Position numbers and translations under genes: made by a program. Below are positions 13,801 to 62,550 of a stretch of DNA of 64,000 nt, piece by piece. The notes under the pieces were generated by a model. The model ran no database searches. It was not told where the DNA came from and worked only from the letters and a program-made list of their open reading frames with translations. This DNA comes from Trypanosoma brucei. Taxonomy: Eukaryota. Position 1 is the first letter of the stretch, and each line of letters starts with the position of its first letter. The DNA lies in NCBI GenBank assembly GCA_000002445.1, contig CM000207.1, positions 160,001 through 224,000 on the forward strand, in the 5' to 3' direction.

Positions 13801-14734
13801 TCTCCCACGCCACTACCGGCTTAAAAGGACGCGACGCTACCAACTCGAGAGCAGCGAAGACCTCCAACAGCATTCAAAAGACGGACAGCCTTCGGTGCGG
13901 CAGTACGAAGCAACATGGAAGGCTCCGCGCACTGTGAGTTCCGTGTTGCACGATCTTTCGGGGGAAAGGGAGTGGAACGGCTAAGTTTTCGGAAGCAGTG
14001 TGCTACGAAGCCTCGTCAGCATTTTTTTTTTTTTTGAAGAAGGAATCGATAAAGGAAGCGGACGAACCCAAGGGTGCCACTACACTTGCCGTTCGTGACG
14101 AGGATGTCCAAAAGGCTGCTGAAAACAAAGGCATCGCACTGCCTGCAAAAACAGAGGGCTGATCGCGACTGAAAATAGACACCGATGAAAACTTTGTAAA
14201 AAGGACGAGCGGTAGGGATTTCTTGAGATAGTTCGGCGAATGTAAACAGAGAAACCTAGGGTGCCGCTTGCTTTCTCTAGAGAAAAAAAAAAAACTTCCC
14301 TTCGAAGTTAGTTGCCGCACCGCGTCTATCGCCACCCTCGACTCGGGCTGCGCATGGGCGGACTCATGTCGAAGCACCTGCGGATTCGACACTTAAGGGA
14401 TATGTAGAGAAAGGGATCCAAAACACACGGACGGGCCAGGCAGTGAACATTCCAGGAGCCGACGGCTGACCATTTTAACCGTTTGCACACCCTGAGTTAG
14501 CAGAAGTGGTTTGGGGAGCTTCCCGCCAACTGATGGGGGTGAGGCTTGGTTGTGAAAGCGGAAGGAGCTAAGCAAGATTGCTATGCGAAAGCTGACTTAT
14601 CTTCGTAATCGATGAACTTCGTCTAGAGAAGACTGCTGAAAAATGCTTTCACTGAAGGAAAACTGCTTTTTCATTCCCTAGAGAAATCGACTAATAATGT
14701 CGAGTTGTATTAACTTGTCGCTGTGTCCGTTGGA

Positions 14735-15069
14735 ACGTAGGAGCTCATGGCAAGAGATGTTGCCAGAAGGAAAGAACGCGGGCTGTGGCGACCCCGTGCG
14801 CAACAGTCATATTCCATCGCGTGGAAGTTTGCCGTTGGCTCTATTTTTGAGAAGGTGATACTGCTGATGGCACGCTGGCACGTGCCCAGGGACCGACAAA
14901 TGAAAAACGGTGTCCCAGCAAGACGCCGTTGATCCCTGTGCTGTATGATGCCGTGGCCGGAGCAAAGCAGTGTTCCCCATGAGAGGAACGCTGCTGGCTC
15001 TTGGCTTCTCCCGATGAGACGGGGTACTGGACCCTGGCACCACGTTGAGGTGGCCGGCGCAACCAGGGT
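14735..15069 (-). mobile_element. RIME/ingi 5'-terminal fragment (about 335 bp)
   Basis: The reverse complement reads CCCTGGTTGCGCCGGCCACCTCAACGTGGTGCCAGGGTCCAGTACCCCGTCTCATCG... This is nearly identical to the 5' end of the full ingi at 43525. The translated minus-strand ORF (ATSTWCQGPVPRLIGRSQEPAAFLSWGTLLCSG...) matches the ingi ORF start (PATSTWFQGPVPRIIGGSQEPAAFLSWGTLLCSG) and diverges after about 250 bp. Confidence 0.75.
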
Positions 15070-26002: not shown

Positions 26003-26054
<52 letters not shown>

Positions 26055-26828: not shown

Positions 26829-27881
26829 TTGTTATGGGGATTAATGTACTTTTGTCTCTATACAGCTTGTTTGGTGAGGGTGACCCTATTTCATTTGAAA
26901 TTACTGAAGATGAGTATAAGATTTGTTTCGCAGGATGTGAGGAGGATATGGGAAATTGAAGATTATTTGGTTGTGGCTGGAATACCTTCAATAGATAATG
27001 ACGAAAGATTTAGAAGGAAAAACTTGCAGAGACAAACGTGTTGGAGTTATCCTGAAGTTGCGAGGAAGTCAAATAATTTTACTGGAAAATTGCTTATAAT
27101 TTATGCACTTTCCGCACATACAAATAACAATTGTGAGCTAAAAGAAATTGTTGAAGAGGAGGCAGAGTTAAATCAGGATGTTATTATTTTACCTGTTTGT
27201 GATGTAAATCCAACAACAAGTAAGAAAGTTGGAGAGGCGGGTAATTGGGGATGGGAACCGGAGATCACGATGAGTAGAAAAACATATTTGTGGTTCAAGT
27301 TCGCAGTTGAAATATTTAAACCAACTAATCCCTATATAATGAAAGCAGATGATGACATATTTATGAGGGTGCCATTGTATCTGAAATATCTGTATGGGCT
27401 TCCAAGAGAGAAATTGAATGTGGCAAGAGCGGTTGGTGAACTTGACGAGTCTATTGCTAAACTGACGTGGTATGTTGTTGGCTACGCAAATACAATTTCG
27501 AGAGGTGTCGTCAAAGAAATAGTTGGCTTTTCGCAAATTTCCAAACTATTAACCAGCAGAATCAGCTTTAGAAACTTTGACAAATATATTGAATATGCTG
27601 CCTTGAATGAGGATATTATGGTGGGGGAGGTGATAAGGCACAAAATGAAACTTGAAGGTTTGCTGACAGTGGGTATGCAGGATTGTCATTATGTGATGCA
27701 TGTGAAAAGACCACTAGATAGATTTGTAAAAGAAAATCCTAAACTTATTGTTTTTCACCACATTGCAGAGGAGGAATATAAGTGGCTAATGACGAATCCA
27801 CAAACAACGATTGAACGAAATGCAGAGCCGCTATTGAGGACGCAGCAAATAGTTCCATTCTGGCATGAAGCTAGCTGTTAA
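26829..27881 (+). CDS. putative UDP-sugar-dependent glycosyltransferase (trypanosome GT67-like), type II membrane topology
   Basis: 350-aa intact ORF. It has an N-terminal hydrophobic anchor (LMYFCLYTACLVRVTLF), a DxD-type motif (KADDDIF) and a GWEPE region typical of the kinetoplastid beta-1,3-GlcNAc/Gal transferase family. A polypyrimidine tract (ttccttcttttctttttaatggtttct, about 26700-26730) lies upstream. Confidence 0.6.
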   Translation: MLWGLMYFCLYTACLVRVTLFHLKLLKMSIRFVSQDVRRIWEIEDYLVVAGIPSIDNDERFRRKNLQRQTCWSYPEVARKSNNFTGKLLIIYALSAHTNNNCELKEIVEEEAELNQDVIILPVCDVNPTTSKKVGEAGNWGWEPEITMSRKTYLWFKFAVEIFKPTNPYIMKADDDIFMRVPLYLKYLYGLPREKLNVARAVGELDESIAKLTWYVVGYANTISRGVVKEIVGFSQISKLLTSRISFRNFDKYIEYAALNEDIMVGEVIRHKMKLEGLLTVGMQDCHYVMHVKRPLDRFVKENPKLIVFHHIAEEEYKWLMTNPQTTIERNAEPLLRTQQIVPFWHEASC

Positions 27882-29889: not shown

Positions 29890-29970
29890 AATATAGTAAT
29901 ATAGTATTAGAAATAATAATTTTAAGCATAGGATAGTGTTGTGAGTGTATATACTAATATTATAGTCGAA
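29890..29970 (+). repeat. 70-bp repeat (short, degenerate)
   Basis: ATAATAAT... then GGATAGTGTTGTGAGTGTATATACTAATATTATAGTCG core. Confidence 0.7.
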
Positions 29971-39675: not shown

Positions 39676-41051
39676 GTTGTGATTAATCCCGACTGAAAAC
39701 ACAGAACAGATATAACTATGACAATAGCAAAAGTGCAATTGAACTGACAAAAAACCTGCAATTTCTTTAACATTTGCTCAGGGAAAGGCCAGAATTAGTT
39801 GTAGAGCTTGTACTGGGAGGATCGCACCTTGCGAAGATTTTCCCGTATTCTGTAGCCACAAAGTGTGGGGAACACGGAGAGTTTAACATACAGAGACTAG
39901 TTGGGCTACAGGAAGATGAGTATAGAGGTTTCTTTGTGGCACTACCACTTGACCATGTAGGCTATCGTTAACAGCAGTATAAACACATAGAATTCTTTCA
40001 AGCAAACCAGAAGCACAAGAAGTGCTATTGCATCAAAAAATAGAGTAGGCACAATAACCCATAGTGGCTACTTCACTCAATTGACTTGGTAGAAATTTTA
40101 GATAAAGGGAACCATTTCGTTGTTTTCTATATTCAAGCTTTTACATGTTAAACAAACGATCCTTAAATGTCAGATCTAGTAGATTATATAAAGGCAACTT
40201 ACAAAAGTGAAATTGAAGTTATACTAGAAAGTGAAAATTGTCAAAAATGAAGCCATATTCCATAATACTTACATCATTTATAGCTTTTGCATCGGTAAGT
40301 GTAGAAAATAATAGGAAAAACCACAACACAGTCAAAGATAGTTCAAATGGAAGAGGAAAGAGCATTTCAGCTCCAGATAGAAGCATCTAGGAAAAAAGCA
40401 GCGGAAAACCCTCCTCAATGCACAAAATTCACATTTGAAAAGCGTGGAATAAATCAAAGAGGGTATCAACTTCATTTAAATAGACAGCTAGGAGCCGTGA
40501 TTGCTGAAGACCGTATAATTCGGCATTGGGAAGTCCATAAAGAGACTGAAGGAGAGACCACACATTACTCAAAAATGTATAGATGCTAATTTCCGAGATG
40601 GTGATGGCCTTGGCCTTTATTCTAATTGTTGCTCCTGATGTTAAGTGGTAAGTTCAAAATGCAGCAGTTGGTAGAATTACGTTTAGACTTTAACGCATAA
40701 ATGAAGAAAATAGAGGGGATTTTTATGCTAGTGTGGGAACGCGGAAGGCTAGGGTACCTGCTAAGGCAGAAAATTATAGAAATATAGAAATAGAAATGAC
40801 GGAAGCACAGCACAAGATAGGATATGAATTCGCTGAGTTACCGAAGCCACGAAATATCCTTAATCAGGAAGCCTTTGAAGTCAGTGCTACAGCAGTAACT
40901 CGATAACGTAATCACGGAATCGCTTGTCAATGTTATCAAAATGCTAACAAGGTTAAAACTTAATAAACTCAAGATTTACCGTTTTTAAAAGAATTCAGCA
41001 ATGAAAAACCAGAAGCTAAATTCACCACTAGTAGTATTCGTAGCTTTGTAG

Positions 41052-42473
41052 CTAACATACTACGAGCGAATCGACGCAGCCGACCCACAATCAGTAACGG
41101 AAATCAAGGACGAATGTGACGAACTTGAATTCATGGTGGCTTTACACAGGCACTTCGACCAGCAGCTAACAACTCTGAACAATGCAGTAACAATGCTAAG
41201 CAAAAATGAACGAAAGCTAGAGTTGGCGGCGGCAAAGAACACCAACGCAGTGATGGAAAAACCGTATACGTTTCTTAGCGCCATCAACAGTGTGTGCAAA
41301 GCACAGGCAGAAGCGGCGCTAGCAAAGCAGGTCGACACCTTAAAACAAGTGATCCATGAAATCTCTAAAAGTGTAGGCCAACTGCAAACGGCCAGTACAA
41401 AAGCGGGAACGGCGGAAGCAGCCTATACATTAGCAGCACAGGACGGCTCGACGGCAAGCCTAGGAAACAGCCTAGGCGACGACTGCAAAGTGACGTTTAC
41501 TGGAACGAAGCCGGCAATTGCAAAGTGTACCAGCAAGGCAGGCACAATGGAACAAATCGAGAAAGTGGGTGCAGAACTAGATCAAATGGAAAACATACCC
41601 TACAGTCCTGTAAGCCAGATCCTTGGCTATAAACTAGCCGTCACAATCAAAAGCAAAAGCACTCCAACAGGCAGCACGGGGTTGACCAACAAACAGGGCT
41701 GCGGCAACGACACAACAGCGAGCAGCAACGGAAAAGGCATAACAGGCATAACCCACGAGGCTCACACAGCCAAGCCTGGCAAGCGATGCCTAAAGAGCAA
41801 CGGTGGCTGCAAACAACCAAGCAGCACAAAAGCGGACGACTCGTTCAACCCGACAAACCTTGCGTACGCCATCTGTCAAGCAAGAGCAGTAACGGTTCCC
41901 AACGCAGTAGATGTAGCAACACAAAAAGTAGCAGATTTAACCAGCGACTATGTAGCCCAACATGTGGCTCTCACATCGTTAAAGAAATCTGCCACAACTA
42001 CTGAATACACGGGCTAAAAGGCCATAACAGACTTTCTTGGTCCAAAACACACTCCGTATCTAATTTCAAATTTGTGTCCACTTTTGTGAATGGAGTAAAA
42101 AATTTGAAATTAGATACGGAGACGGCACCAATAAGCATCGAAGCTGCAAGTAGTGAAGGCAACTTCGGCAAGGCCTTAGCCATATTCATAGCAAAAGAAA
42201 AACAGCCTGCGCTGCTAGGAAGCAAAGAAAGCCAGACAGCCGACAACAATAAGGAAGCAGATGCAACAGAAATAACAGGAGAAAAAAAAGACTGGCATAA
42301 TAAAGCCGCAACTGAATGTGTAGCCACCGAAGAGAAAGATTGTGACAAAACAAAGTGTAACTGGAACAAGGAAAAAAGTGAGTGAAAAGTTAAGGAGGGG
42401 GCGGCTTTTATTTCTTATGTGATTGAGGCCCCCCTTTTACTTGTGGTTTTGCTTCTATATATAATTTTTTAAT
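41052..42473 (+). pseudogene. VSG: VSG pseudogene lacking a start or signal peptide (stop at 41049), frameshift before the C-terminus
   Basis: Mature N-terminus-like ...DECDELEFMVALHRHFDQQL. A 294-aa N-terminal-domain ORF. C-terminal domain CVATEEKDCDKTKCNWNKEKSE. GPI-like tail GAAFISYVIEAPLLLVVLLLYIIF in another frame. Confidence 0.8.
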
Positions 42474-42743
42474 TACTTTTTCTCCAATTTAAGAATTTTA
42501 TAATATTTGAAAAATTTTTGTATAATTTAAAATCTTTTAACATTTTTCGATGAAATTGTGCAAAGTATTTAATGATTAAAAGTTTTTAAAAATTAAAGAA
42601 CAGAAAAATTGTGAAAACAGTGTATGGTGGCGGTTTAACAGTTTAAAGTATTGTATTGTAGGCTACAAAAAATGACTAATATTATGAAGTTTCTTTATTT
42701 TGCATATTTTGTGAATATTAGTTAGTATTATAATAAGAGCAGA

Positions 42744-43171
<428 letters not shown>

Positions 43172-43209
43172 TAATAATAATGATAATTATGATAGGATAG
43201 TGTTGTGAG

Positions 43210-43309
43210 NNNNNNNNNNNNNNNNNNNNNNNNNNNNNNNNNNNNNNNNNNNNNNNNNNNNNNNNNNNNNNNNNNNNNNNNNNNNNNNNNNNNNNNNNNN
43301 NNNNNNNNN
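43210..43309. other. assembly gap (100 N)
   Basis: Run of n characters. True size unknown. Confidence 0.99.
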
Positions 43310-43524
43310 TGACAGCCCTCAGGCACGACCAACAATAAAGAGGAGGAAAATGGTAACAAAGCAGATGCATCAGCAGACAAAACAGGAGATAAGTCAGACG
43401 GGAATTAAAAAGATGAGGTTTGCACAGGCACTGAAGAAAAAGATTGTGACACGAAAAAGTGTGATTGGAATAAGTAAAAGAAAGAGTGTAAAGTTAAATG
43501 GGGGCAGAAGTTACCTCTTATGTG
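43310..43524 (+). pseudogene. VSG: VSG C-terminal fragment (CDWNK motif plus GPI-signal remnant)
   Basis: ...GTEEKDCDTKKCDWNK... then agtgtaaagttaaatggggg...tcttatgtg. This aligns with the VSG 3' end at 42330-42420 (CNWNKEKSE...tttcttatgtgattgagg). The ingi begins immediately after. Confidence 0.6.
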
Positions 43525-46500
43525 CCCTGGCGATGCCGGCCACCTCAACGTGGTTCCAGGGTCCAGTACCCCGTATCATCGGGGGAAGCCAAGAGCCAGC
43601 AGCGTTCCTTTCATGGGGAACACTGCTTTGCTCCGGCTACAGCATCATACAGCACAAGGATCAGCAGCGTCTTGCTGGGACACCGTTTTTCATTTGTCGG
43701 TCCCTGGGCACGCGCCAGCGTACCATCAGCAGTATCATCCGCACTAAGATGCTGCTGTCCGGTGATGTGGAAGAGAATCCCGGCCCGTCGTTGCGCGGGA
43801 TGCAGTGGAACTGCGCCGGGCTATCTCAAGGAAAGAGATTAGCACTCCACAAAACCCTTGTTGATGAGCGGATCGCCTTTTGTCTGTTGAGCGAGACAAG
43901 GATGACGCCTGGAGAGGCGGCTTGCTTTAGCGTTGCTGGCTACCAACATCACGAAATAGCTCGTAACTGCAAAGGAGGTGGTGTATCAATACTAGTGAGG
44001 GAGGACCTACCAGTCGAGACCGGTATGGCCGTTGTTGGTCGCATTGAACAAGTGCATGCAACAATTCACCTTGCACGTGGAACGGCGCTGACTGTCACGT
44101 CGGCATACATCCCACCAAAACACACCTTCACGGCAACTGACCTAGATACGCTTCTGACGACTGACGGTGCCCAGCTCTCATCGGTGCAGACGCTAACGCA
44201 CACGCGTTGGCATGGGATCGCGCGAACCCACCAAATACCAAGGGTGAAACCCTCACACAGTGGTGCATTGACAACCAGTTTCTGGTCTGCAACACTGGTG
44301 AGTGCGCCATTTACACACGCCACCACGGGGAGTCCACCCCTGATGTGACACTGTCAAGGAATTGTACAGTGTACACGTGGACATCGCTGTATTCTCCCGA
44401 TAGCGATCACCATCACATATTTTTCGACGTTATCGTTGTAGACGACACAGATGCACTGAGTTGCCCGCGGCTTCGAAAGCCCATGTACGCATGGCTAAAA
44501 GCTAACTGGAGGAATTTCCGTCTCAAGGTTGACGAGCTCTGCAGGAAAATTGGTAGAGAGAAGAACGTCAACACCCTGGAACAGAAATTGAGCTCCGCCA
44601 TCCGCATTGCAACGAAGGTCTCCGTCCCCCGTGGCTGCAGAGTAACGCCACCACATTGGACACCTGAGCTCGCGAAACTCGATGAAGAGATCGCTGGATG
44701 CGGACCCTCCCACCGAAGGGAAAAGTTGGTAACCACGCGTAAGCAGATCCTGGACCGTACCACAAAGAAGAGATGGAGCACGCTATGCTCCAGACTTGCG
44801 GTGTCAGACCGCTGCAGTTGCCACATTGTCAAGAAGGTATATGCGCCACGACCACTAACCACACCGGCTGTACTTGTTGATAACGCGGCCATCACGGACT
44901 ACCGTCAAGCTGAGAGGTTCATTAAACTGTACTCGTCCCGCGCAAGAAGGCACCCCGACTCACACCCACCGGCACCAATAAAGACGATAGCGAGTGAGTT
45001 CAGTCTCATCACGATGGCTGAACTACGGAGATCGATCAAACTGCTACCGAGTGGATCCGCAGCCGGACCTGATTGCTTATACAACGAGGCACTGAACATC
45101 TCGGTAGAACAGCGCTGAATGTTGTTCTGAAGCTATTCTATGAAAACATACGAACGGGAGTCGTGCCGTCTGCATGGAAGATCGGTGTTATCATCCCCAT
45201 CCTGAATGCCGGAAAAAAGGCGGAGGACCTCGATTCTTACAGGCCTGTAACGCCCACGAGCTGTCTCTGCAAAGTCATGGAGCGCATAATTGCCGCGAGG
45301 CTTAGAGACACTGTTGAGTCCCAGCTGACGACGCAGCAATCAGGCTTTTGCCACGGATGCTCAACGCTCGAACAACTCCTGCACATCCGCGCTGCCCTCT
45401 GCCGTCCCACGCACCAATATCGTACGGGTGCTGTATTCGTTGACTACGAGAAGGCATTCGATACAGTAGACCACGACAAAATTGCGAGGAAAATGCACAG
45501 AATGAAGGTATCACCCCACATTGTGAAGTGGTGCGTATCATTTCTGAGTAACCGAACTGGCAGAGTGAGATTCAAGGAGAAGATTTCCAGCAGCAGAACA
45601 TTTGAGCGAGGAGTCCCACAAGGAGCTGTCCTTGGCCCAATCATGTTCATTATTGTCATGAACTCGTTGAGCCAGCGCCTTGCAGAAGTGCCGTTGCTGC
45701 AGCACGGATTCTTTGCAGACGACCTGACGCTACTTGCGAGGCACACAGAGAGGGATGTCATCAACCACACACTACAATGCGGTCTAAACGTGGTGTTACA
45801 GTGGTCAAAAGAGTACTTCATATCTGTCAACGTAGCGAAAACAAAGTGCACACTCTTCGGGTGTACAGAGCGCTATCACCTTACATTACAACTGGACGGC
45901 GAAAGAATAGGAGCTGACAGGACACCGAAGCTTCTAGGAGTAACATTCCAGTGTCTGCAGGGGATGGCAACACATGCGGCCGAAACGAGACGCAAGATGG
46001 ACTTCAGACTACTGCAGATAGCAGCCATCTCAGCTTCTACATGGGGGCCAAGACGACAAGTGTTGAGAGCTTTTCATCTGGAACTCGTACAGGCACACAC
46101 CATGTATGGCATTGAGGTATGGTACTGGGACGCTTCGAAACGAAATCGCGACCTCCTTGCATCAGCACAACACAAAGCCAGTCGCATCATAGCTGGCATA
46201 CCGCATGGGACGCGCAAAGAGGACTCTCTGCTGGAAGCAAACCTCCTGCCACTCAAGACGACCACTCTTGTGCGCAGCATGAAATTCATGCTGATGTGTG
46301 AGTCACGAGGCGGATGTTTGCGGCGCAGTGCTGAAGAAGTATACCACAGCAAACACCCAGTCAGAGTCTTACATTCCCGCATCATGCTGTCCTACCCCCA
46401 CCTCCGCATTGAGCCACGCGAGCAACCACTAGAGACATCGACGCTCCGCCACAGCTGCCGACCGCTATTTCACACGCAGATAAAGCCTGTGTGCGCTGAT

Positions 46501-48779
46501 GACCCTGACGATGTCAAAAGCGAGGCTTCCGAAAAGTGGATTGCACGGCATTTTGCACGGAGGGGGAAGGAGCCACAGCGGCGAGAGCACTACGAATTGT
46601 GGACTGATGGATGCGTGTCCCTCGGTGAGAAGTCCGGAGCAACTGCCCTGCTCTATAGAAACAACACGCTGATTTGCGCACCCAAAACTGGAGCAGGGGA
46701 ACTCTCATGCAGTTACAGAGCGGAATGCGTAGCATTAGAGATAGGACTGCAACGGCTGCTGAAATGGCTTCCGGCATACAGAAGCACACAGAGCAGGTTG
46801 TCCATCTTCTCTGACTCGCTGTCAATGTTAACAGCACTGCAGACAGGCCCCCTAGCCGTAACGGACCCAATTCTAAGACGACTATGGAGGCTTCTGCTTC
46901 AAGTTCAGAGAAGGAAGATACGTATCCGACTGCAATTTGTGTTTGGCCATTGTGGCGTGAAACGGAATGAGGTTTGTGATGAAATGGCCAAAAAGGCCGC
47001 AGATTTACCACAGTTGCGAGACACATGGATCCCCGACATCATTGCTTATGCGAAGCGAGTGCTTAGGTCGGAAGAAGTCCATGAGAACACTCATAGGTTT
47101 GGTATCACGGGCAACCACTTTACAACAAAACATAAGGAAGAACTGACGAGGGAAGAAGAAACGGCATTGGCACGCTTTCGGGTTGGGTCTTCAAGACACT
47201 ATGGATGGATGTTGCGAAAGATCAACCCGAGTGTGCCTCCACAGTGCCGATGGTGCAACCAGAAACATGCACCGATAGGACCAACAATACAAAAGGCCCC
47301 ACCTGTTGCGACACGCACTCTTCAGAGAACCTCCGAACCGACAAAATGTACGGAATGTGATGCCGCATACCAATGCCGCTCGAGTTCTGTAACGCACATG
47401 GTAAACAAACATGGCTTTGTGCGAGCTGATGCCCTCCGGAGGATCAAATACGGCGATGCAACACCCGCAGTGGATATCCCCCCGGAGCCCCCTCCAGTGG
47501 TGGCGATCGTTCCTCTACCATCGAACACACGAGTCCCGATGAGACCGCAGTTGCTTCATTGTACCATCTGTGCCTCCAAATTCGCAGTGCCAGGCCGACT
47601 ATTACACCACCTTAGAACAATACATGGCATAGGCAGCGGTAGTTGCCGCGTGAAAAGGGGGCGAGAGAACGAGGACTCATTGCAAGGAGATGGTAGAGCC
47701 CCAGCAGCGCCAGCCTCTCAGGATACACGGAAGCTGCCGTTTCAATGTGACCTGTGTGAGGCGAGTTTCGGTACACACTCTTCCCTGTCACTACACAAGA
47801 AATTCAAACATAAGAGCATAGTGACGGAGGACGGTACCGTGGTGGTGGTGCAATTCCCTCGTAAGCGTGCCCGTGAGGGAAACGTTGACGTGCCGGGGAA
47901 AGGCGAGGTGCAGTGTGGTGTGTGCCAAAAAGTGCTCAGTTGCAGGGACTCCCTCATCCGACACTGTAAGGCTTTCCACAAAGGTGAGGGTGTCGAGCTT
48001 AAATGCAGCAAAAGCAAAAAATTTTGTGCCACTGATTCCCCGCATACAAATGCATCCATGTTGGTGTGCCCGACATGCGGAAGGCAGTGTGCTAGCAAAA
48101 CTGGCCTCACCCTACATCAAAAGAAGATGCACGGTATGAAGGTAGAGCGCGCTGTTACCAGCCAACGCGGCGACTGTGAAGAAACGTCGCTGCACTCGAT
48201 GAGCTGTCCCGGTTTGAAGGAGTTACGTGTCAGGTTTGCGGTGGAAGGTGAGTGTGTGCAGGATATATGCTTCTCCAAAAGGCTGGCGCAGTTTCTCATT
48301 GCGGTTGAACGGAGCCGGCCGCAGGTGAAGTCCTCACCTAAGGTAACAGTCATACAACCCACTCTCCCTTCTGCAACTTCCCCCCTTATTGCCGAGTGTG
48401 GAGCTAGCAGGAAAAGCACCGGATGCAGGAATAGTCCAGACACCCTCAGAGACAGAGGGGGTATGCAGTCAACAAGCAACAAAAACATAAAAAGGGGGAG
48501 AGAATAATAAACGAATAACAAAAATCAAAACAAAAGGATTGCTAATTGACATCTTTGGGAGAGTCCGGAGTGGGGGGCTTCTCGCCCCATCTGCTGTATT
48601 CCGTTCAACTGCGGAGCTACAACAAAAATTATAGAGGGAGTGTTAGGATGAATAAAAAAGGGAGACTCTGCCACAGTCGCCAGATCGATAGCATCTCAGG
48701 GCTCTACGGTGATGGTTGATGGCCGCGCCAGTGGGGGGAAACTCTCACGAAGGCACGAAGAAAATTCCAAAAAAAAAAT
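43525..48779 (+). mobile_element. ingi non-LTR retrotransposon, about 5.25 kb, degenerate (ORF split over three frames), A10 tail
   Basis: The 5' end CCCTGGCGATGCCGGCCACCTCAACGTGG... is the RIME/ingi terminus. A 2A-like peptide SGDVEENPGP sits at 43758-43787. There is an AP-endonuclease-like region (MQWNCAGLS...CLLSETR). RT motifs are present (AVFVDYEKAFDTVDHD, GVPQGAVLGP, FFADDLTL). An RNaseH-like region is present (LWTDGCVS...AECVALE). Four C2H2 fingers are present (CTICASKF..HHLRTIHG, CDLCEASF..HKKFKHK, CGVCQKVL..RHCKAFHKG, CPTCGRQC..HQKKMHG). ORF segments are 43350-44348, 44207-45118 and 45073-48507. The poly(A) tail is at 48769-48779. Confidence 0.9.
45073..48507 (+). pseudogene. ingi ORF fragment: reverse transcriptase, RNaseH, C2H2 zinc-finger region (1144 aa, frame-disrupted relative to the EN region)
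   Basis: RT motif series and zinc fingers as above. The upstream EN part is in two other frames, so the element cannot encode the single roughly 1650-aa ingi polyprotein. Confidence 0.85.
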
Positions 48780-50206
48780 AGCGGTGGCAGCACTTGCATT
48801 CACGAAACCAACTGAGGCAGAAAATTCAGCTGCTGCTGAAGGAATAAAGACACGCCGCGATGAACTAAAATTCAATCATGCACTGGCCGAGGCGCTACGG
48901 AAAAACGTCAGACAGGCACAAGGCAACTTACAAAACATAAGAACCGAAACGCGGGCGCTTCTTCTGGCGGCAATGCTAGCAGACACAATAAAGCAGCGAC
49001 AGGCATATAGTGTTATAGCTGCATATTCCGACGCCAAAGCAACCGCGCTGAAGGCAACGATCGACACAAAAAGCAAACAAATTATAGACGCCGCCGACGT
49101 GCTGGAAAAGAGGAGCGCCCAATTAAGAGGGGCGATTTTCGCAGCGAAAACAAAGGCGGTAACCGTTTCCGGCTCAATAGCGGGAGCACTAGCCAATGAC
49201 CCTGATTTCGGGGGAACGGCGAAGACATGCACACTAAAGCTTTCAGTGCACGACACGGCTGACACGGCATGCGACACCTCAGCCAACTATGATGACACCC
49301 TCGCAACACTGGCCACACAAATTAATAACCTGAAGACCATCTATACAGTCTGCGATGAGACCCCAATCACAGAACAGCTGACGGCGGTAATCACAAGCAA
49401 AGGCGACTTCGCGAGCTCAGGGGACACAACAGCAGACGGAACCGCATACTGCGGTAACCATGCCACGCGATCAAGCGCAACACACGCCATTAGCATAAAA
49501 GAACTACACGGTGAAAGCAACCCGACACGCACGATACCACAAAACCTCGAAAACGACGGAACTTGCGTAAAGCCAGGAGCCGGCCGCAAGGACGGATTAA
49601 TAACGATAAGAGAGACCGCGGCCTCAAAATGCAACGCCAAAAAAAACCTCATATCCCCGGTAATGCCAGTAAGCAGCCCGTCAGCGACCCAGCTAATCGA
49701 CGACCCAACGTTCCAAAAGCTGGCCGCCCTAGCATCAGGACAAAACACACCGCAAACTACCGGCGGAAAAAATGACAAAGCAGCAGCGATCCAACTTTTA
49801 GGGAGCGACGAAACGAATTTAAAAGACAAGTATTTCACCCCACTGGAAAACCAACACGTAGAATTCAACCTAGGTGAAGAACTAATCAGAACCAGCATAA
49901 AATCGGCAGCTTCAGGTGACAATTACGGCGCAGTTTTGGCGTTTTCAGCAGGAAAAGCAGCCATTCAAGCAGTACAGAAGGACATACCAAAAGGAGTGGA
50001 AACAGAAGCTAACGATGACTGCACAGGAAAAGGAAAAGATGATTGCAACAACAAAACAGGGTGCAAATACAATGACAAATATAGAAATGCGAAAAAGACC
50101 CTGCAAAAGCTACAACGGCGGGAACACCAGTGACCAAAAACACCACAGGAAGCAATTCTGTTATGATTAATAAAACCCCTCTTTTCTTGCATTTGTGGTT
50201 ATATAG
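48780..50206 (+). pseudogene. VSG: VSG (type-A), N-terminally truncated at the ingi junction (no start or signal peptide), otherwise a continuous about 470-codon frame with one C-terminal shift
   Basis: Begins IAVAALAFTKPTEAENSAAAEG immediately after the ingi A-tail. C-terminal domain DDCTGKGKDDCNNKTGCKYN. Tail VTKNTTGSNSVMINKTPLFLAFVVI. Confidence 0.8.
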
Positions 50207-50290
50207 TTATGCTTTTCGAAGATTTTTGCTACATTTTGTGAAATATGCGAAAATTGCTTTGTCAGAGAGTCTGTTAAATTTTCTTAAATT

Positions 50291-50306
50291 TGACATATTT
50301 TAACAC
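50291..50306 (+). promoter_or_regulatory. VSG 3'UTR 16-mer (tgacatattttaacac)
   Basis: About 85 bp after the VSG stop. Confidence 0.55.
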
Positions 50307-50439
50307 TTTTAGATAATATGTGTAAATTTGTTAAAATGTGAAAGTTTAGTAAATTTTATATAATAGCAGCTTAGTCGTGTATTTAGTATGTGAAATTGTA
50401 CGGAAAAGGAATGATATTATAATTTTATTTATTTTGTTT

Positions 50440-50555
50440 ATTTTATTGATATTATTTGCTTTTATGATAGTGATAGTATTAGCAAGGAAAATGCAAAATA
50501 TAATAAAAGGAGAGTGTTGTAAGTGTGTAAATACGAATATTATAAAAACTTATTT
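50440..50555 (+). repeat. 70-bp repeat (degenerate TRR plus GGAGAGTGTTGTAAGTGTGTAAATACGAATATTATAAAAAC)
   Basis: Direct read. Confidence 0.7.
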
Positions 50556-52548
50556 GTGAAGACTGAATAAACAACAAAAAAGAAACACAGAAAAGAGTTG
50601 TAGTGTTGCAACGAATGGAAGCTAGAAAAAAAGGGAAATGGAAATGGGAATATTTTAATGAAAACAAAGGCATAAATGGAAGTGGGGTATGCACATGTCT
50701 ATAAACAAACATGAATATAATCACCATTATACAAAAGAAAATAAAGAAGGAGAACATAAGATACAGACAGAGTCCAGTGAAGAGGCATAATGCAGTCTCT
50801 ACGTTACCTATAGTGAGACAGGAAACTAAGGACCATAAATTTTGATATTTTACATTTAGATACAGGGCGGAATGTTTTCTAATTGAGAGTGGAAACTTGT
50901 CGAACAAATTATAGAAGCTTCGTGACTGATTTACGCTCTTCAACTTTCTATTTTTCTCATAACAACTACAAATTTCACATGTATAATGGGGCATCAACTT
51001 AATTATCTTGGCAATTTTACTGGCTCTGCTGTCCTTAGTGTGTTTAAGCTCAACATATCTTGAGAACAATGATGTAACAAATTAAAAAACAATTATAACA
51101 AAGAATGATCCTAAGAAGCACAGAGTATTTGTGATTGTAGTTCAAACGCATGCAACTAAAGAATGGTGTAGGCTCATATTGAAATTATTACAATTGCAAA
51201 AAGAGGTTTGTATAGCCATGTTAAAAGGCCTAGATGGGTTATGCAATATTTAGAGAAACAGAATGCAAGTGATGAGGATATTGTAATTTATTTGGATAGA
51301 TCTGATGTTATAATATCCGAACTTTATAAGTATTGTAAAGCTGTGGAATATTTTATACAGAATACTGCAGAAAGTGAAGAGAAGTTTAGTAAATAGGATG
51401 TTTTCAAAGAGCATGTAGAGAGATGTTACTGGTTTTTTAATGTTGGATATAGAAAGGAAGAGGACAAAAAATTAAATCATTCTAAAATCGCCTCCTAGTG
51501 GAAAACCCTATCTTAGCGGTGGAGGTTTGATAGCCAGAGTTTGGGCAGTTAAAAGGTTTGAATATGCATTTGTAGAATTTTTGGGAGGAAGTAAGGAATG
51601 GCAGTCAGATAAGAGTATTTACAAGCCATTTCTTATTTGGAGTGCAACTCAAAAAGAAGCTGTTGGACAGAGAATTGTTTTGAATAGAGGAATGATTGGA
51701 TTGGATTATGAAGTGAAATTTTTTCACTCGACTTAGTGAAGGGTTTAGGAAAACTACATTCATTTATTTTCCAGGATAGCAGATTGCATGGGAAGAGTGG
51801 ACGGAATTGATTTTTTAAAACCTTAGTTTGTACAAGAACTTGAGATGGAGGAAATTCGCTGGTAGAGATATGGGGAAAATAGAAACTTATGCAATGGATG
51901 GAGGAAATGGGATTTTGTATATCGGGAAGTTTTGTGGTGATACGGGTACACAAGGACATTCTTTGAAGCTAAGCAGGCGTTGACGCAGGTCCTAAAATAA
52001 CTATATTTAACGACAAGCAGCTCTGAAAACTACTGCTGACATCCTAACGATGCCAAAGGAGTCTGAACCTTTCAACTCCTGCATAACCCAACACATGTTT
52101 ATATAATAGCTGTGTTGTTAAGCTGAATAAGAGTGCTAACCGCGTGAATATAGAAGACAGAGGCATGTTTCAGGGGGAAGCTTTGCGATATAGAAAAAAC
52201 AGTTCATATAATGCCTCGACAATAACGAAACGTTTTTGATGAAATAAACGAGGCTCTTCTTGTCAATGCAATTAAACATTCGAACATCCATCATACTAAT
52301 TGACTTTGCTGTCACATTAGCACTATTCATTAGAAAAGACTGAAACAAATTTTAGCGATAGGGAAGAAAACCACTACACACTGATAAGGTACAGAATTCA
52401 ATAAAATCTAGTGATACCAGCATCAAGTCACTCCTCGGAACAAAGAATTATAGCTTCAAAGCAACGACACAAAGCCGTAATCACGGCAAAGCGACGCACT
52501 CGCCACAAAATGCTGCTTTCATCAGCAAGAAGCACTCAACAGCGCAAC

Positions 52549-61086: not shown

Positions 61087-62550
61087 GTGCCGGCAGATAT
61101 GTGTAAAACCAAAAGCAGCAGCAGCCTAGGAGCCTACACCTTCCTGACGTTAATAACGTTAATAGCTGTTTCCGGCACAGACACGCCAGAAGAAATTACC
61201 AAGGATGCCTGCGGCTCAGCGGCCTTCCTTCGCATAGTCGCGGACACTGTTAAAAGTGGACTTTTAGCAGCTGTGAAGCGAAACAACGAACTGAACAAAA
61301 GACTAGCACAGGCAACGGCAGCAGTACGCAACCAACAAAGGCCGGATCTTGGCAAAGCAGCAATGGCTTTATTGCCAATTCTAGCAAAGAAGGCGGCCGA
61401 GGAGACGTCGGCAGCCCTGGCAATGCCAACAAGGGCATTGCCAGGACTCGTAGCGGCAGCAAATTACAGTGGGCAGCAGCAGGCGCTAGCGGCGCTACTG
61501 ACAACAGAAGTAGCAGACAGCACAACAGGCCAAAGCGACGTGGGAAGCGCAGCCTCAGGGACAGCCAACATCAAATTTAAACTCAGCCAAACCAACGGAC
61601 TCACCTCGTGCGCTAGCAGCGTAAACAAGGCGGCGGACAAACACGCGTCGTGGGCCACAGTCCCAGGCCTAAAAAAATTCAGCATACACTCGCCAGAACC
61701 GGAGGTGTCGGCCAGCGACAACAGGTTTCTGGCGGTTGGCAAAGGCAGCGGCAACGGACAACAATGTGACGTAAATGGAGGAACAAACAAGCAGTTCACA
61801 GTTACAAGCTCACACGTTTGCATAGCAGGCGGCCCTGTATTTTCAGCAGCACAAAAGCAACTAGACGCCGGCACCTCAGGTGACTACGGTCGGGGGCACA
61901 TAAGCAGCTACAGCGAAACCGACGAAGACCATTTCGCCAAGCAGGCGGCGACAGACATCAAAACCGCCGTCAACGCCCTAGCAAGCAGAGCGGGGGCGTT
62001 TGATCCCAACGAACTAAGCAGCTATGACGCCGACCCGGATTTCCAGGCTGCGGTGGGCGCAATCTACGGCAATTTACCCCGAGACAAAGCAACCGGCGAA
62101 GCAAAAAATACAGTATCCAACCTTATCACACAGCATTTTGGAAAGGCGCAAAACTTCAAAAGCAAGATTTGGGACGAAATCGAAAAGCTGAAAGTGCCAG
62201 CAACAGTCCTTGGAGACAAGGCAGAGATGACGCTAAAGGACGTTGACGACATAGGATTAGCTACACATATAATGGTACAACACATTACCGCCAGCTTCCA
62301 AAAGTCAGCACCTCAAGCAGAAAAGCAGCCAGATACCACAGAAGTCAAACCAGGAAAAGCAGAAGAAACGAAAAAAACAGCAGACGAATGCAAAAAGCAT
62401 ACAACAAGTGAAGATTGTAAAAAGGAAAAAGGTTGTGATTTTGTTGAGAAAAAACCGGAAGGTGAAAAATGCTTTCCAAAAGTTGAGACTGACAAGAAAG
62501 ATGAAGAAAATAATGGGAAAGAAAGCTCTGACCGCAAAGATAAGCCTTAG
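61087..62550 (+). CDS. VSG: VSG, 487-aa open frame covering the whole N-terminal domain and first C-terminal subdomain, with the final subdomain and GPI signal in the +1 frame (to about 62665)
   Basis: Leader MPADMCKTKSSSSLGAYTFLTLITLIAVSG. C-terminal motifs CKKHTTSEDCKKEKGCDFVEKKPEGEKC. Then after a shift, KDCTGNCKWENNACKDYSFIVNKKFALTAATLIGLLGF*. Confidence 0.7.
   Translation: MPADMCKTKSSSSLGAYTFLTLITLIAVSGTDTPEEITKDACGSAAFLRIVADTVKSGLLAAVKRNNELNKRLAQATAAVRNQQRPDLGKAAMALLPILAKKAAEETSAALAMPTRALPGLVAAANYSGQQQALAALLTTEVADSTTGQSDVGSAASGTANIKFKLSQTNGLTSCASSVNKAADKHASWATVPGLKKFSIHSPEPEVSASDNRFLAVGKGSGNGQQCDVNGGTNKQFTVTSSHVCIAGGPVFSAAQKQLDAGTSGDYGRGHISSYSETDEDHFAKQAATDIKTAVNALASRAGAFDPNELSSYDADPDFQAAVGAIYGNLPRDKATGEAKNTVSNLITQHFGKAQNFKSKIWDEIEKLKVPATVLGDKAEMTLKDVDDIGLATHIMVQHITASFQKSAPQAEKQPDTTEVKPGKAEETKKTADECKKHTTSEDCKKEKGCDFVEKKPEGEKCFPKVETDKKDEENNGKESSDRKDKP

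What the first reader, a model, noticed from the sequence alone, without database searches (positions are those of the whole stretch)
43310..50206. Ingi retrotransposon flanked by non-contiguous VSG pieces (a 3' fragment upstream, an N-truncated VSG downstream)
Upstream of the ingi 5' end is the last 215 bp of a VSG (CDWNK motif plus GPI-signal remnant). Immediately after the ingi A10 tail a different VSG begins at its mature N-terminus with no start codon or signal peptide. A simple insertion into one VSG would leave the 5' part upstream and the 3' part downstream. Here the order is reversed, and I see no target-site duplication flanking the element (...ctcttatgtg | ccctgg ... aaaaaaaaaa | tagcggtggc). 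This suggests an ingi-associated rearrangement, such as inter-element recombination or a deletion that removed the intervening VSG body and the next 70-bp repeat. It could also be two independent events.
Basis: partly seen in the sequence, partly recalled or inferred. Interest (0 to 1): 0.6.

Follow-up and report, generated by a model that had tools for sequence, protein, structure and literature searches.

The report
Ingi retrotransposon between two VSG pseudogenes

Summary
The window is T. brucei brucei TREU927, from a 3.06-Mb NCBI record. A full-length Tbingi occupies 43525-48778. It has two frameshifts and an A10 tail. No 12-bp target-site duplication flanks it, not even a degenerate one. 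The two flanks belong to different VSGs.

Two parts of the observation need correcting:
- A 100-N scaffold gap (43210-43309) ends exactly where the finding starts. It interrupts a 70-bp repeat. The "215-bp VSG fragment" is therefore cut by the assembly. It has not been shown to be a biological fragment.
- The downstream VSG does not start at its mature N-terminus. It lacks only its first 10 codons and keeps 13 signal-peptide residues.

Ingi copies without a duplication are common. Two of five T. b. equiperdum copies I checked have none, and one of those also abuts an N-truncated VSG. Ingi/RIME recombination is already in the literature (PMC2854126).

The best reading is a hybrid element left by homologous exchange between two ingi copies (about 0.45). 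An assembly mis-join, a single insertion with target deletion, and 5' transduction with the duplication hidden in the gap all remain open. No orthologous locus could be reached. The finding is ordinary and of low interest.

The parts
42746..43209 (+). 70-bp-repeat region upstream of the gap. It consists of a 423-bp (TAA)n tract (42746-43168) followed by the repeat core GATAGTGTTGTGAG, which is cut off by the gap.
43210..43309 (.). 100-N scaffold gap of unknown true size. It abuts the first base of the finding.
43310..43524 (+). VSG-A: the 3' end of a VSG-like pseudogene. It carries the C-terminal-domain cysteine motif CTGTEEKDCDTKKCDWNK and the first codons of the GPI signal, with two in-frame stops. 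Its left edge is set by the gap. Compared with the neighbouring VSG tail, it lacks the last 16 codons and the stop.
   Evidence: No Pfam, PDB or protein-database homologue was found.
43513..43524 (+). The 12 nt (ACCTCTTATGTG) where the 5' copy of a target-site duplication would lie. Together with the 22 nt upstream, they match the published Tbingi target motif at 6 of 10 positions (about 3% of window positions score this high).
43525..48778 (+). Full-length Tbingi non-LTR retrotransposon, 5254 bp. It has the canonical 5' end and an A10 tail (48769-48778). Two frameshifts (near element nt 660 and 1560) leave it defective.
48779..50206 (+). VSG-B: a VSGsur-like VSG pseudogene. It starts at codon 11, inside the signal peptide (AVAALAFTKPTEA|ENSAAAEG). 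A window-specific 1-nt deletion near 50085 shifts the frame in the C-terminal domain. The whole family also shares a frame problem in the GPI signal.
48712..50133 (+). Chimeric ORF annotated in public databases as 'VSG, putative' (EAN76243.1 / XP_803398.1). Its ATG and first 22 codons come from the ingi 3' tail and poly(A) (MVDGRASGGKLSRRHEENSKKK), fused in frame to VSG-B.
50460..50560 (+). 70-bp repeat downstream of VSG-B (core at 50511). It marks the start of the next cassette and is conserved in the T. equiperdum homologous cassettes.

Best explanation
A defective, full-length Tbingi sits in a silent, same-strand VSG array of T. brucei TREU927. Its two junctions derive from two different insertion sites. 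The 5' junction lies in the GPI-signal coding end of one VSG pseudogene (VSG-A). The 3' junction lies at codon 10/11 of another (VSG-B).

The most likely history is as follows. Two ingi copies in the same orientation each inserted normally by target-primed reverse transcription, and each acquired its own 12-bp duplication. Homologous recombination between them (unequal crossover or deletion, or a gene conversion or cassette duplication that used ingi as its upstream homology) then left one hybrid element. That element carries the left flank of one copy and the right flank of the other.

The lost interval is at least about 1.9 kb: the last 16 codons of VSG-A, its 3' UTR, a 70-bp repeat, about 1.5 kb of upstream region and the first 10 codons of VSG-B. 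It could equally be many cassettes long.

Shown: the anatomy, the absence of a duplication, and the different identities of the two flanks. Inferred: the recombination step and the two-element history.
For: - No target-site duplication, even a degenerate or gapped one. A 12-bp duplication is the rule for Tbingi/TbRIME (PMC3820030).
- The same test recovers duplications in controls: 12/12 in L006, 11/12 with one indel in L004, and 8/12 in L003.
- Decay cannot explain the loss. The element has 84 private sites in 5254 bp.
- The 5' flank matches the published Tbingi endonuclease target motif at 6 of 10 positions, and only at the correct register (about 3% of window positions). Five control elements score 8, 8, 7, 7 and 3.
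- A proxy for the pre-insertion site at the 3' junction, taken from intact homologues, scores 5 of 10 (about 10%).
- The pattern recurs. Two of five T. b. equiperdum ingi copies lack a duplication. One of them (L002) abuts an N-truncated VSG. L002 and L005 share a 600-bp 3' flank but have unrelated 5' flanks.
Against: - No reciprocal junction and no ancestral arrangement was found, and no independent assembly of either junction could be reached.
- The element shows no internal breakpoint signal against five other copies. With comparators from another strain, this test has little power.
- The motif matches are statistically weak (about 0.03 and 0.10).
- A scaffold gap lies 215 bp from the 5' junction, so this region of the assembly was never finished.
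Confidence: 0.45

Rival explanations
1. Assembly mis-join. The VSG-A tail plus ingi 5' end and the ingi 3' end plus VSG-B belong to two different ingi copies in the genome. They were joined through the roughly 5.2-kb repeat during assembly of this unfinished subtelomeric region.
For: - A 100-N scaffold gap lies only 215 bp from the ingi 5' end, so the right-hand contig ends just outside a dispersed repeat.
- The first 500 nt of ingi are the least divergent part: 7-8 differences from two other copies. Junction reads could therefore be assigned to the wrong copy.
- A mis-join would also explain why both flanks look like genuine target sites.
Against: - Ingi copies differ from one another by 2-5%, which is many differences per sequencing read. 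From general knowledge, TREU927 was sequenced with Sanger-length reads, and those usually separate copies this divergent.
- The 84 private sites of this copy are spread evenly along its length. A collapsed consensus would not look like that.
- The same pattern, with no duplication and mismatched flanks, occurs in an independent T. b. equiperdum assembly.
Confidence: 0.2
2. One retrotransposition event with target-site deletion. The first-strand nick and reverse transcription started at codon 10/11 of VSG-B. The 5' end of the new copy was then joined to a break further upstream, in the tail of the preceding VSG-A. This deleted the intervening 1.9 kb or so instead of creating a duplication.
For: - It needs only one event.
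- VSG-A and VSG-B lie on the same strand, in the order expected for neighbouring cassettes.
- The size of the missing interval equals one normal inter-VSG interval.
- The proxy pre-insertion site at the 3' junction matches the target motif moderately, at 5 of 10.
- From general knowledge, insertion-associated target deletions are documented for mammalian L1.
Against: - The 5' junction would then be an arbitrary break. Yet it matches the endonuclease target motif at 6 of 10, only in the right register, and the element's 5' end is complete to the first base.
- I found no report of this mechanism for ingi.
Confidence: 0.15
3. 5' transduction. A read-through transcript began upstream of a source ingi that sat in the tail of VSG-A. 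It was retrotransposed as one unit into codon 10/11 of VSG-B. The matching duplication copy and the head of VSG-B then lie in the unsequenced gap. On this reading the locus is a simple insertion into one VSG.
For: - The contig left of the gap ends in a 70-bp repeat. That is what should precede VSG-B's upstream region; an intact homologue has the repeat about 1.5 kb before its ATG.
- It would explain both the motif match at the VSG-A/ingi junction (the source copy's own target site) and the apparent lack of a duplication.
Against: - Elements of the L1Tc/ingi clade carry a 5' HDV-like ribozyme within the first 77 nt, which releases the element RNA from upstream co-transcripts (abstracts of PMC4035085 and PMC3383444).
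- The first 21 nt of this copy match the four comparator copies that carry the CCCTGGCGATGCC 5' end, L003-L006; L002 differs there.
- A 70-bp repeat before the gap is equally expected if the gap simply hides the body of VSG-A.
Confidence: 0.07

Closest known systems
Tbingi / TbRIME (ingi4 subclade) non-LTR retrotransposons of T. brucei
   Same: It has the canonical 5' end and the expected 5.25-kb length. It carries endonuclease, RT, RNase H and zinc-finger coding capacity and a poly(A) tail. It is 95-97% identical to other ingi copies, and the 5' flank resembles the published target motif.
   Different: It lacks the 12-bp target-site duplication that defines a fresh insertion. Its ORF is broken by two frameshifts.
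Retroelement-mediated ectopic recombination, as described for ingi/RIME rearrangements between T. brucei subspecies (PMC2854126) and for chimeric RHS pseudogenes flanking ingi/RIME (Bringaud et al. 2002, as summarised in PMC7563717)
   Same: One element sits between flanks that do not belong together, with no shared duplication, in a subtelomeric multigene array.
   Different: Here the flanks are two VSG pseudogenes rather than RHS genes or core-genome genes. The recombination is inferred from one assembly only, with no ancestral or reciprocal product in hand.
The ingi without a duplication in T. b. equiperdum IVM-t1 (locus L002, 1744-6998), 3 kb upstream of a VSG-B homologue
   Same: It is a full-length ingi in a VSG array with no 12-bp duplication. 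An N-terminally truncated VSG lies at one end and unrelated sequence at the other.
   Different: It has the opposite orientation and different insertion sites. The VSG-B homologue beside it is intact at its N-terminus, so it is an independent event and not the same locus.

Membership tests
Tbingi non-LTR retrotransposon | The conserved 5' signature begins CCCTGG..., and the element is about 5.2 kb long. | tested here: met
   The 5' end is at 43525 and the element is 5254 bp. It aligns end to end at 95-97% identity with five ingi copies.
Tbingi non-LTR retrotransposon | It encodes an AP-type endonuclease, a reverse transcriptase, RNase H and a C2H2 zinc finger in one long ORF. | tested here: met
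   Pfam gives RVT_1 at 1.3e-42 and RNase_H at 1.2e-08. Exo_endo_phos and zf-C2H2 hits are weak. All 1656 aa of an intact ingi ORF are covered at 93-95% identity, but in three frames, so the ORF is not intact.
Tbingi non-LTR retrotransposon | A 3' poly(A) tail. | tested here: met
   A10 at 48769-48778.
Simple (unrearranged) ingi insertion by target-primed reverse transcription | A 12-bp target-site duplication flanks the element. | tested here: not met
   ACCTCTTATGTG lies upstream and TAGCGGTGGCAG downstream. The best local alignment of the flanks is below the random median. The same test finds duplications in three of five control elements.
Simple (unrearranged) ingi insertion by target-primed reverse transcription | The conserved target motif AxxxxxxxTxxxGTxGGxTxxx^xTxTxxTxxxxx lies upstream of the element (PMC3820030). 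| tested here: inconclusive
   The match is 6 of 10, at the correct register only (about 3% of window positions). Controls score 8, 8, 7, 7 and 3.
Variant surface glycoprotein (downstream gene, VSG-B) | Full-length homology to known VSGs. | tested here: met
   It is 78-94% identical to proteins that their sources name VSG. A full-length homologue matches the VSGsur structure 6z79 at E 3.5e-27 over residues 11-484. There is no Pfam hit.
Variant surface glycoprotein (downstream gene, VSG-B) | An intact N-terminal signal peptide and a C-terminal GPI signal, as needed for a functional gene. | tested here: not met
   The first 10 codons are missing. A 1-nt deletion near 50085 shifts the frame. The GPI-signal frame is disrupted.
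Variant surface glycoprotein (upstream piece, VSG-A) | Homology to a VSG C-terminal domain and GPI signal. | tested here: inconclusive
   It is 71% identical at the DNA level over 170 nt (E 2e-17) to the C-terminal coding end of the adjacent array gene, which continues into a hydrophobic tail and a stop. Pfam, PDB and the protein database gave no match. The neighbour itself has no Pfam or PDB match either.

The most novel reading that the evidence does not exclude
Ingi copies scattered through silent VSG arrays could act as regular homology blocks for deleting, fusing or moving VSG cassettes. This would be an alternative to the 70-bp repeats. As a by-product it would create ingi-tail::VSG fusion ORFs such as the annotated XP_803398.1. 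If so, retrotransposons would measurably shape the turnover of the antigen archive.
Probability: 0.1. Interest if true: 0.35.

Novelty: already known. Interest (0 to 1): 0.15.

Why it matters
It matters little beyond curation.

- The locus is one more example of a retrotransposon-associated rearrangement in the fast-evolving VSG archive of a published reference genome.
- There is a practical annotation point. The database entry XP_803398.1 ('VSG, putative') is a fusion of ingi tail, poly(A) and a VSG that lacks its signal-peptide start. It should be treated as a pseudogene.
- Any structural inference at this locus must wait for the adjacent scaffold gap to be closed.

Tried and rejected
- **Orthologous locus.** Exact-protein look-ups for window VSGs, for the annotated chimeric ORF and for the EATRO1125 homologue returned no contigs. 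The two T. equiperdum loci that carry VSG-B homologues share only the cassette from CDS nt 28 to about 1.5 kb past the stop. They contain nothing like VSG-A, so they are paralogous cassettes and not syntenic arrays.
- **Missing parts within the window.** There is no second copy of either flanking 12-mer next to an ingi end. VSG-B's upstream region is not present anywhere in the window.
- **Internal recombination breakpoint in the ingi.** I compared sliding-window distances and shared minority alleles against five other copies. There was no signal, and the test has low power.
- **Identity of the VSG-A piece.** Pfam, PDB and the large protein search found nothing.
- **Rfam scan of 40000-52000.** No family reached threshold.
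- **Mutational decay of the duplication.** Rejected, because the element has only 1.6% private divergence.
- **Insertion into a pre-existing VSG-A/VSG-B fusion.** Rejected, because that would still leave a duplication.
- **Literature.** Bringaud et al. 2002 and 2004 are not held in the library. I took the 12-bp rule and the target motif from PMC3820030 instead.
Full report
**Source and setting.** Exact-sequence look-up identifies the window as Trypanosoma brucei brucei TREU927, from an NCBI record of 3,057,547 bp. Three window ORFs are in the public protein collection: a glycosyltransferase (26844-27881) and two 'VSG, putative' entries (48712-50133 and 61099-62550). The region is a same-strand array of VSG cassettes. 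70-bp-repeat cores lie at 29936, 36293, 39636, 43200 and 50511. The three with a clear following VSG start (29936, 36293, 39636) each lie 1.3-1.5 kb upstream of it.

**What is confirmed.**
- An ingi begins with CCCTGGCGATGCC at 43525 and ends with A10 at 48769-48778.
- It is 5254 bp and aligns end to end at 95-97% identity with five T. b. equiperdum ingi copies.
- It has RT (1.3e-42) and RNase H (1.2e-08) domains, plus weak endonuclease and zinc-finger hits.
- It covers all 1656 residues of an intact ingi ORF, but in three frames. It is therefore full-length and defective, with two frameshifts.
- The 215 nt upstream (43310-43524) read as a cysteine-rich VSG C-terminal region with two in-frame stops.
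- That piece is 71% identical over 170 nt (E 2e-17) to the C-terminal coding end of the neighbouring array gene. The alignment runs exactly up to ...TCTTATGTG at the junction. The neighbour then continues for 16 more codons of hydrophobic GPI signal and a stop.
- Downstream of the poly(A), a different gene reads in frame from 48781.
- That gene is 94% identical to EATRO1125 VSG 1125.3086 and 78-81% identical to two 517-aa T. equiperdum VSGs. A full-length family member matches the solved VSGsur structure (6z79, E 3.5e-27).

- Positions 43210-43309 are 100 N. This gap starts in the middle of a 70-bp-repeat core (...GATAGTGTTGTGAG|NNN) and ends at the first base of the finding. The '215-bp fragment' is therefore bounded by the assembly, not by biology.
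- Given the spacing of the other cassettes, a complete VSG-A would need about 2.6-2.8 kb here. The 100 N are presumably a conventional placeholder of unknown true length, so that is possible.
- The downstream VSG does not begin at its mature N-terminus. The T. equiperdum homologues begin MTSQTATAFI|AVAALAFTQPSEE.... DNA homology to them starts at the last A of the tail (window 48778 aligns with CDS nt 28). Only 10 codons are missing, and 13 signal-peptide residues remain.
- The public annotation gives this gene a start codon inside the ingi tail. XP_803398.1 begins MVDGRASGGKLSRRHEENSKKK and then continues IAVAALAF.... It is an ingi::VSG fusion ORF and not an intact VSG.
- VSG-B also carries a window-specific 1-nt deletion near 50085. 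The whole family reads through the GPI signal into the 3' UTR.

**Absence of a target-site duplication.** Tbingi and TbRIME are flanked by a conserved 12-bp duplication and preceded by the motif AxxxxxxxTxxxGTxGGxTxxx^xTxTxxTxxxxx (PMC3820030).
- Here the flanks are ACCTCTTATGTG and TAGCGGTGGCAG. A gapped local alignment of 20 nt upstream against 40 nt downstream scores 4, below the random median of 5.
- Neither 12-mer recurs at a sensible place in the window.
- The method works on controls. Among five T. b. equiperdum full-length copies, one has a perfect 12/12 duplication (L006), one has 11/12 with an indel (L004), one has 8/12 (L003), and two have none (L002, L005).
- Decay is not the cause. 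The window copy has 84 private differences in 5254 bp (1.6%), spread evenly.

**Are the junctions genuine insertion sites?**
- The 34 nt before the element match the target motif at 6 of 10 positions, and only in the correct register. About 3% of window positions score that high. The controls score 8, 8, 7, 7 and 3.
- For the 3' junction, I used the intact homologues as a proxy for the pre-insertion sequence. The expected register scores 5 of 10, about 10%.
- Both results are compatible with two real target sites, but the evidence is weak.

**How unusual is this?** It is not unusual.
- Two of the five control ingi copies lack a duplication.
- One of them (L002) lies inverted 3 kb upstream of a VSG-B homologue. 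Its 5' end abuts a VSG that aligns only from about residue 210 onward, while its poly(A) end abuts unrelated intergenic sequence.
- L002 and L005 share about 600 bp of 3' flank (74% identity) but have unrelated 5' flanks.
- Recombination around ingi/RIME insertion sites is also the published explanation for chimeric RHS pseudogenes (summarised in PMC7563717).

**Mechanism.** The best-supported reading (about 0.45) is a hybrid element produced by homologous exchange between two same-orientation ingi copies. One had inserted in the GPI-signal end of VSG-A and the other at codon 10/11 of VSG-B.
- By comparison with an intact homologous cassette, the lost interval is at least about 1.9 kb. It comprises 16 codons, a 3' UTR, a 70-bp repeat, about 1.5 kb of upstream region and 10 codons.
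- The interval could equally span many cassettes, or the exchange could have been with a copy on another chromosome.
- The anatomy is shown. The exchange is inferred.

**Rivals.**
- Assembly mis-join across the repeat next to an unfinished gap (about 0.2).
- A single insertion with target-site deletion (about 0.15).
- 5' transduction of the VSG-A tail, with the duplication and the head of VSG-B hidden in the gap (about 0.07). The 5' HDV-like ribozyme of this clade argues against this.
- The internal breakpoint test on the element was uninformative.

**What could not be done.** No orthologous array or independent assembly of either junction was reachable with these tools. The VSG-A piece has no detectable protein relative.

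**Verdict.** The element and the missing duplication are real in the assembled sequence. The 'reversed fragment order' puzzle is half created by an overlooked scaffold gap. The remaining feature, an ingi with mismatched flanks in a VSG array, belongs to a known and common class. Interest is low.

Noticed in passing
window 48712-50133: The public entry EAN76243.1 / XP_803398.1 ('VSG, putative') is a chimeric ORF. Its ATG and first 22 codons come from the ingi 3' tail and poly(A), fused in frame to a VSG that lacks its first 10 codons. This looks like an annotation artefact.
   Followed up: yes
window 42746-43168: An unusually long, pure (TAA)n tract of 423 bp (141 units) forms the triplet part of the 70-bp repeat just before the scaffold gap. 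It may be the reason the gap could not be closed.
   Followed up: no
window 14856-15068 (minus strand): A second ingi/RIME-type 5' end (CCCTGGTTGCGCCGGCCACC...) shows only about 213 nt of homology to ingi (94.6%). Unrelated sequence follows, with no ingi 3' half. It is either a truncated element or another family that shares the 5' signature. The T14 run at 14022-14035 does not provide a matching duplication.
   Followed up: partly
window 43350-44348: A 332-aa ATG-initiated ORF starts inside the VSG-A tail (in a different frame) and reads across the junction into the ingi endonuclease region. It is not present in the protein collection.
   Followed up: partly
window 50176-50206; L001 and L002 homologues: All members of the VSG-B family seen (TREU927, EATRO1125 and two T. 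equiperdum strains) read NKTPLFLHLWLYSYAF... through the GPI-signal region into the 3' UTR. The canonical ending ...LAFVVI* lies in another frame. This suggests an old frameshift shared across the family, so these genes can serve only as partial donors.
   Followed up: partly
L002 1744-6998 and L005 3993-9241: Two T. b. equiperdum ingi copies without a target-site duplication are followed by the same repeated sequence of about 600 bp (74% identity) but preceded by unrelated sequences. I did not establish what that shared 3' flank is.
   Followed up: partly
window 26844-27881: An annotated UDP-Gal/UDP-GlcNAc-dependent glycosyltransferase gene (XP_803396.1) sits inside the VSG array, just after a (TAA)n tract at 26005-26052.
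   Followed up: no
window 41001-42450: The VSG immediately upstream of the gap has a stop codon within its signal-peptide region (MKNQKLNSPLVVFVAL*) and further frame breaks, so it is also a pseudogene. Its N-terminal domain has no Pfam or PDB match.
   Followed up: partly
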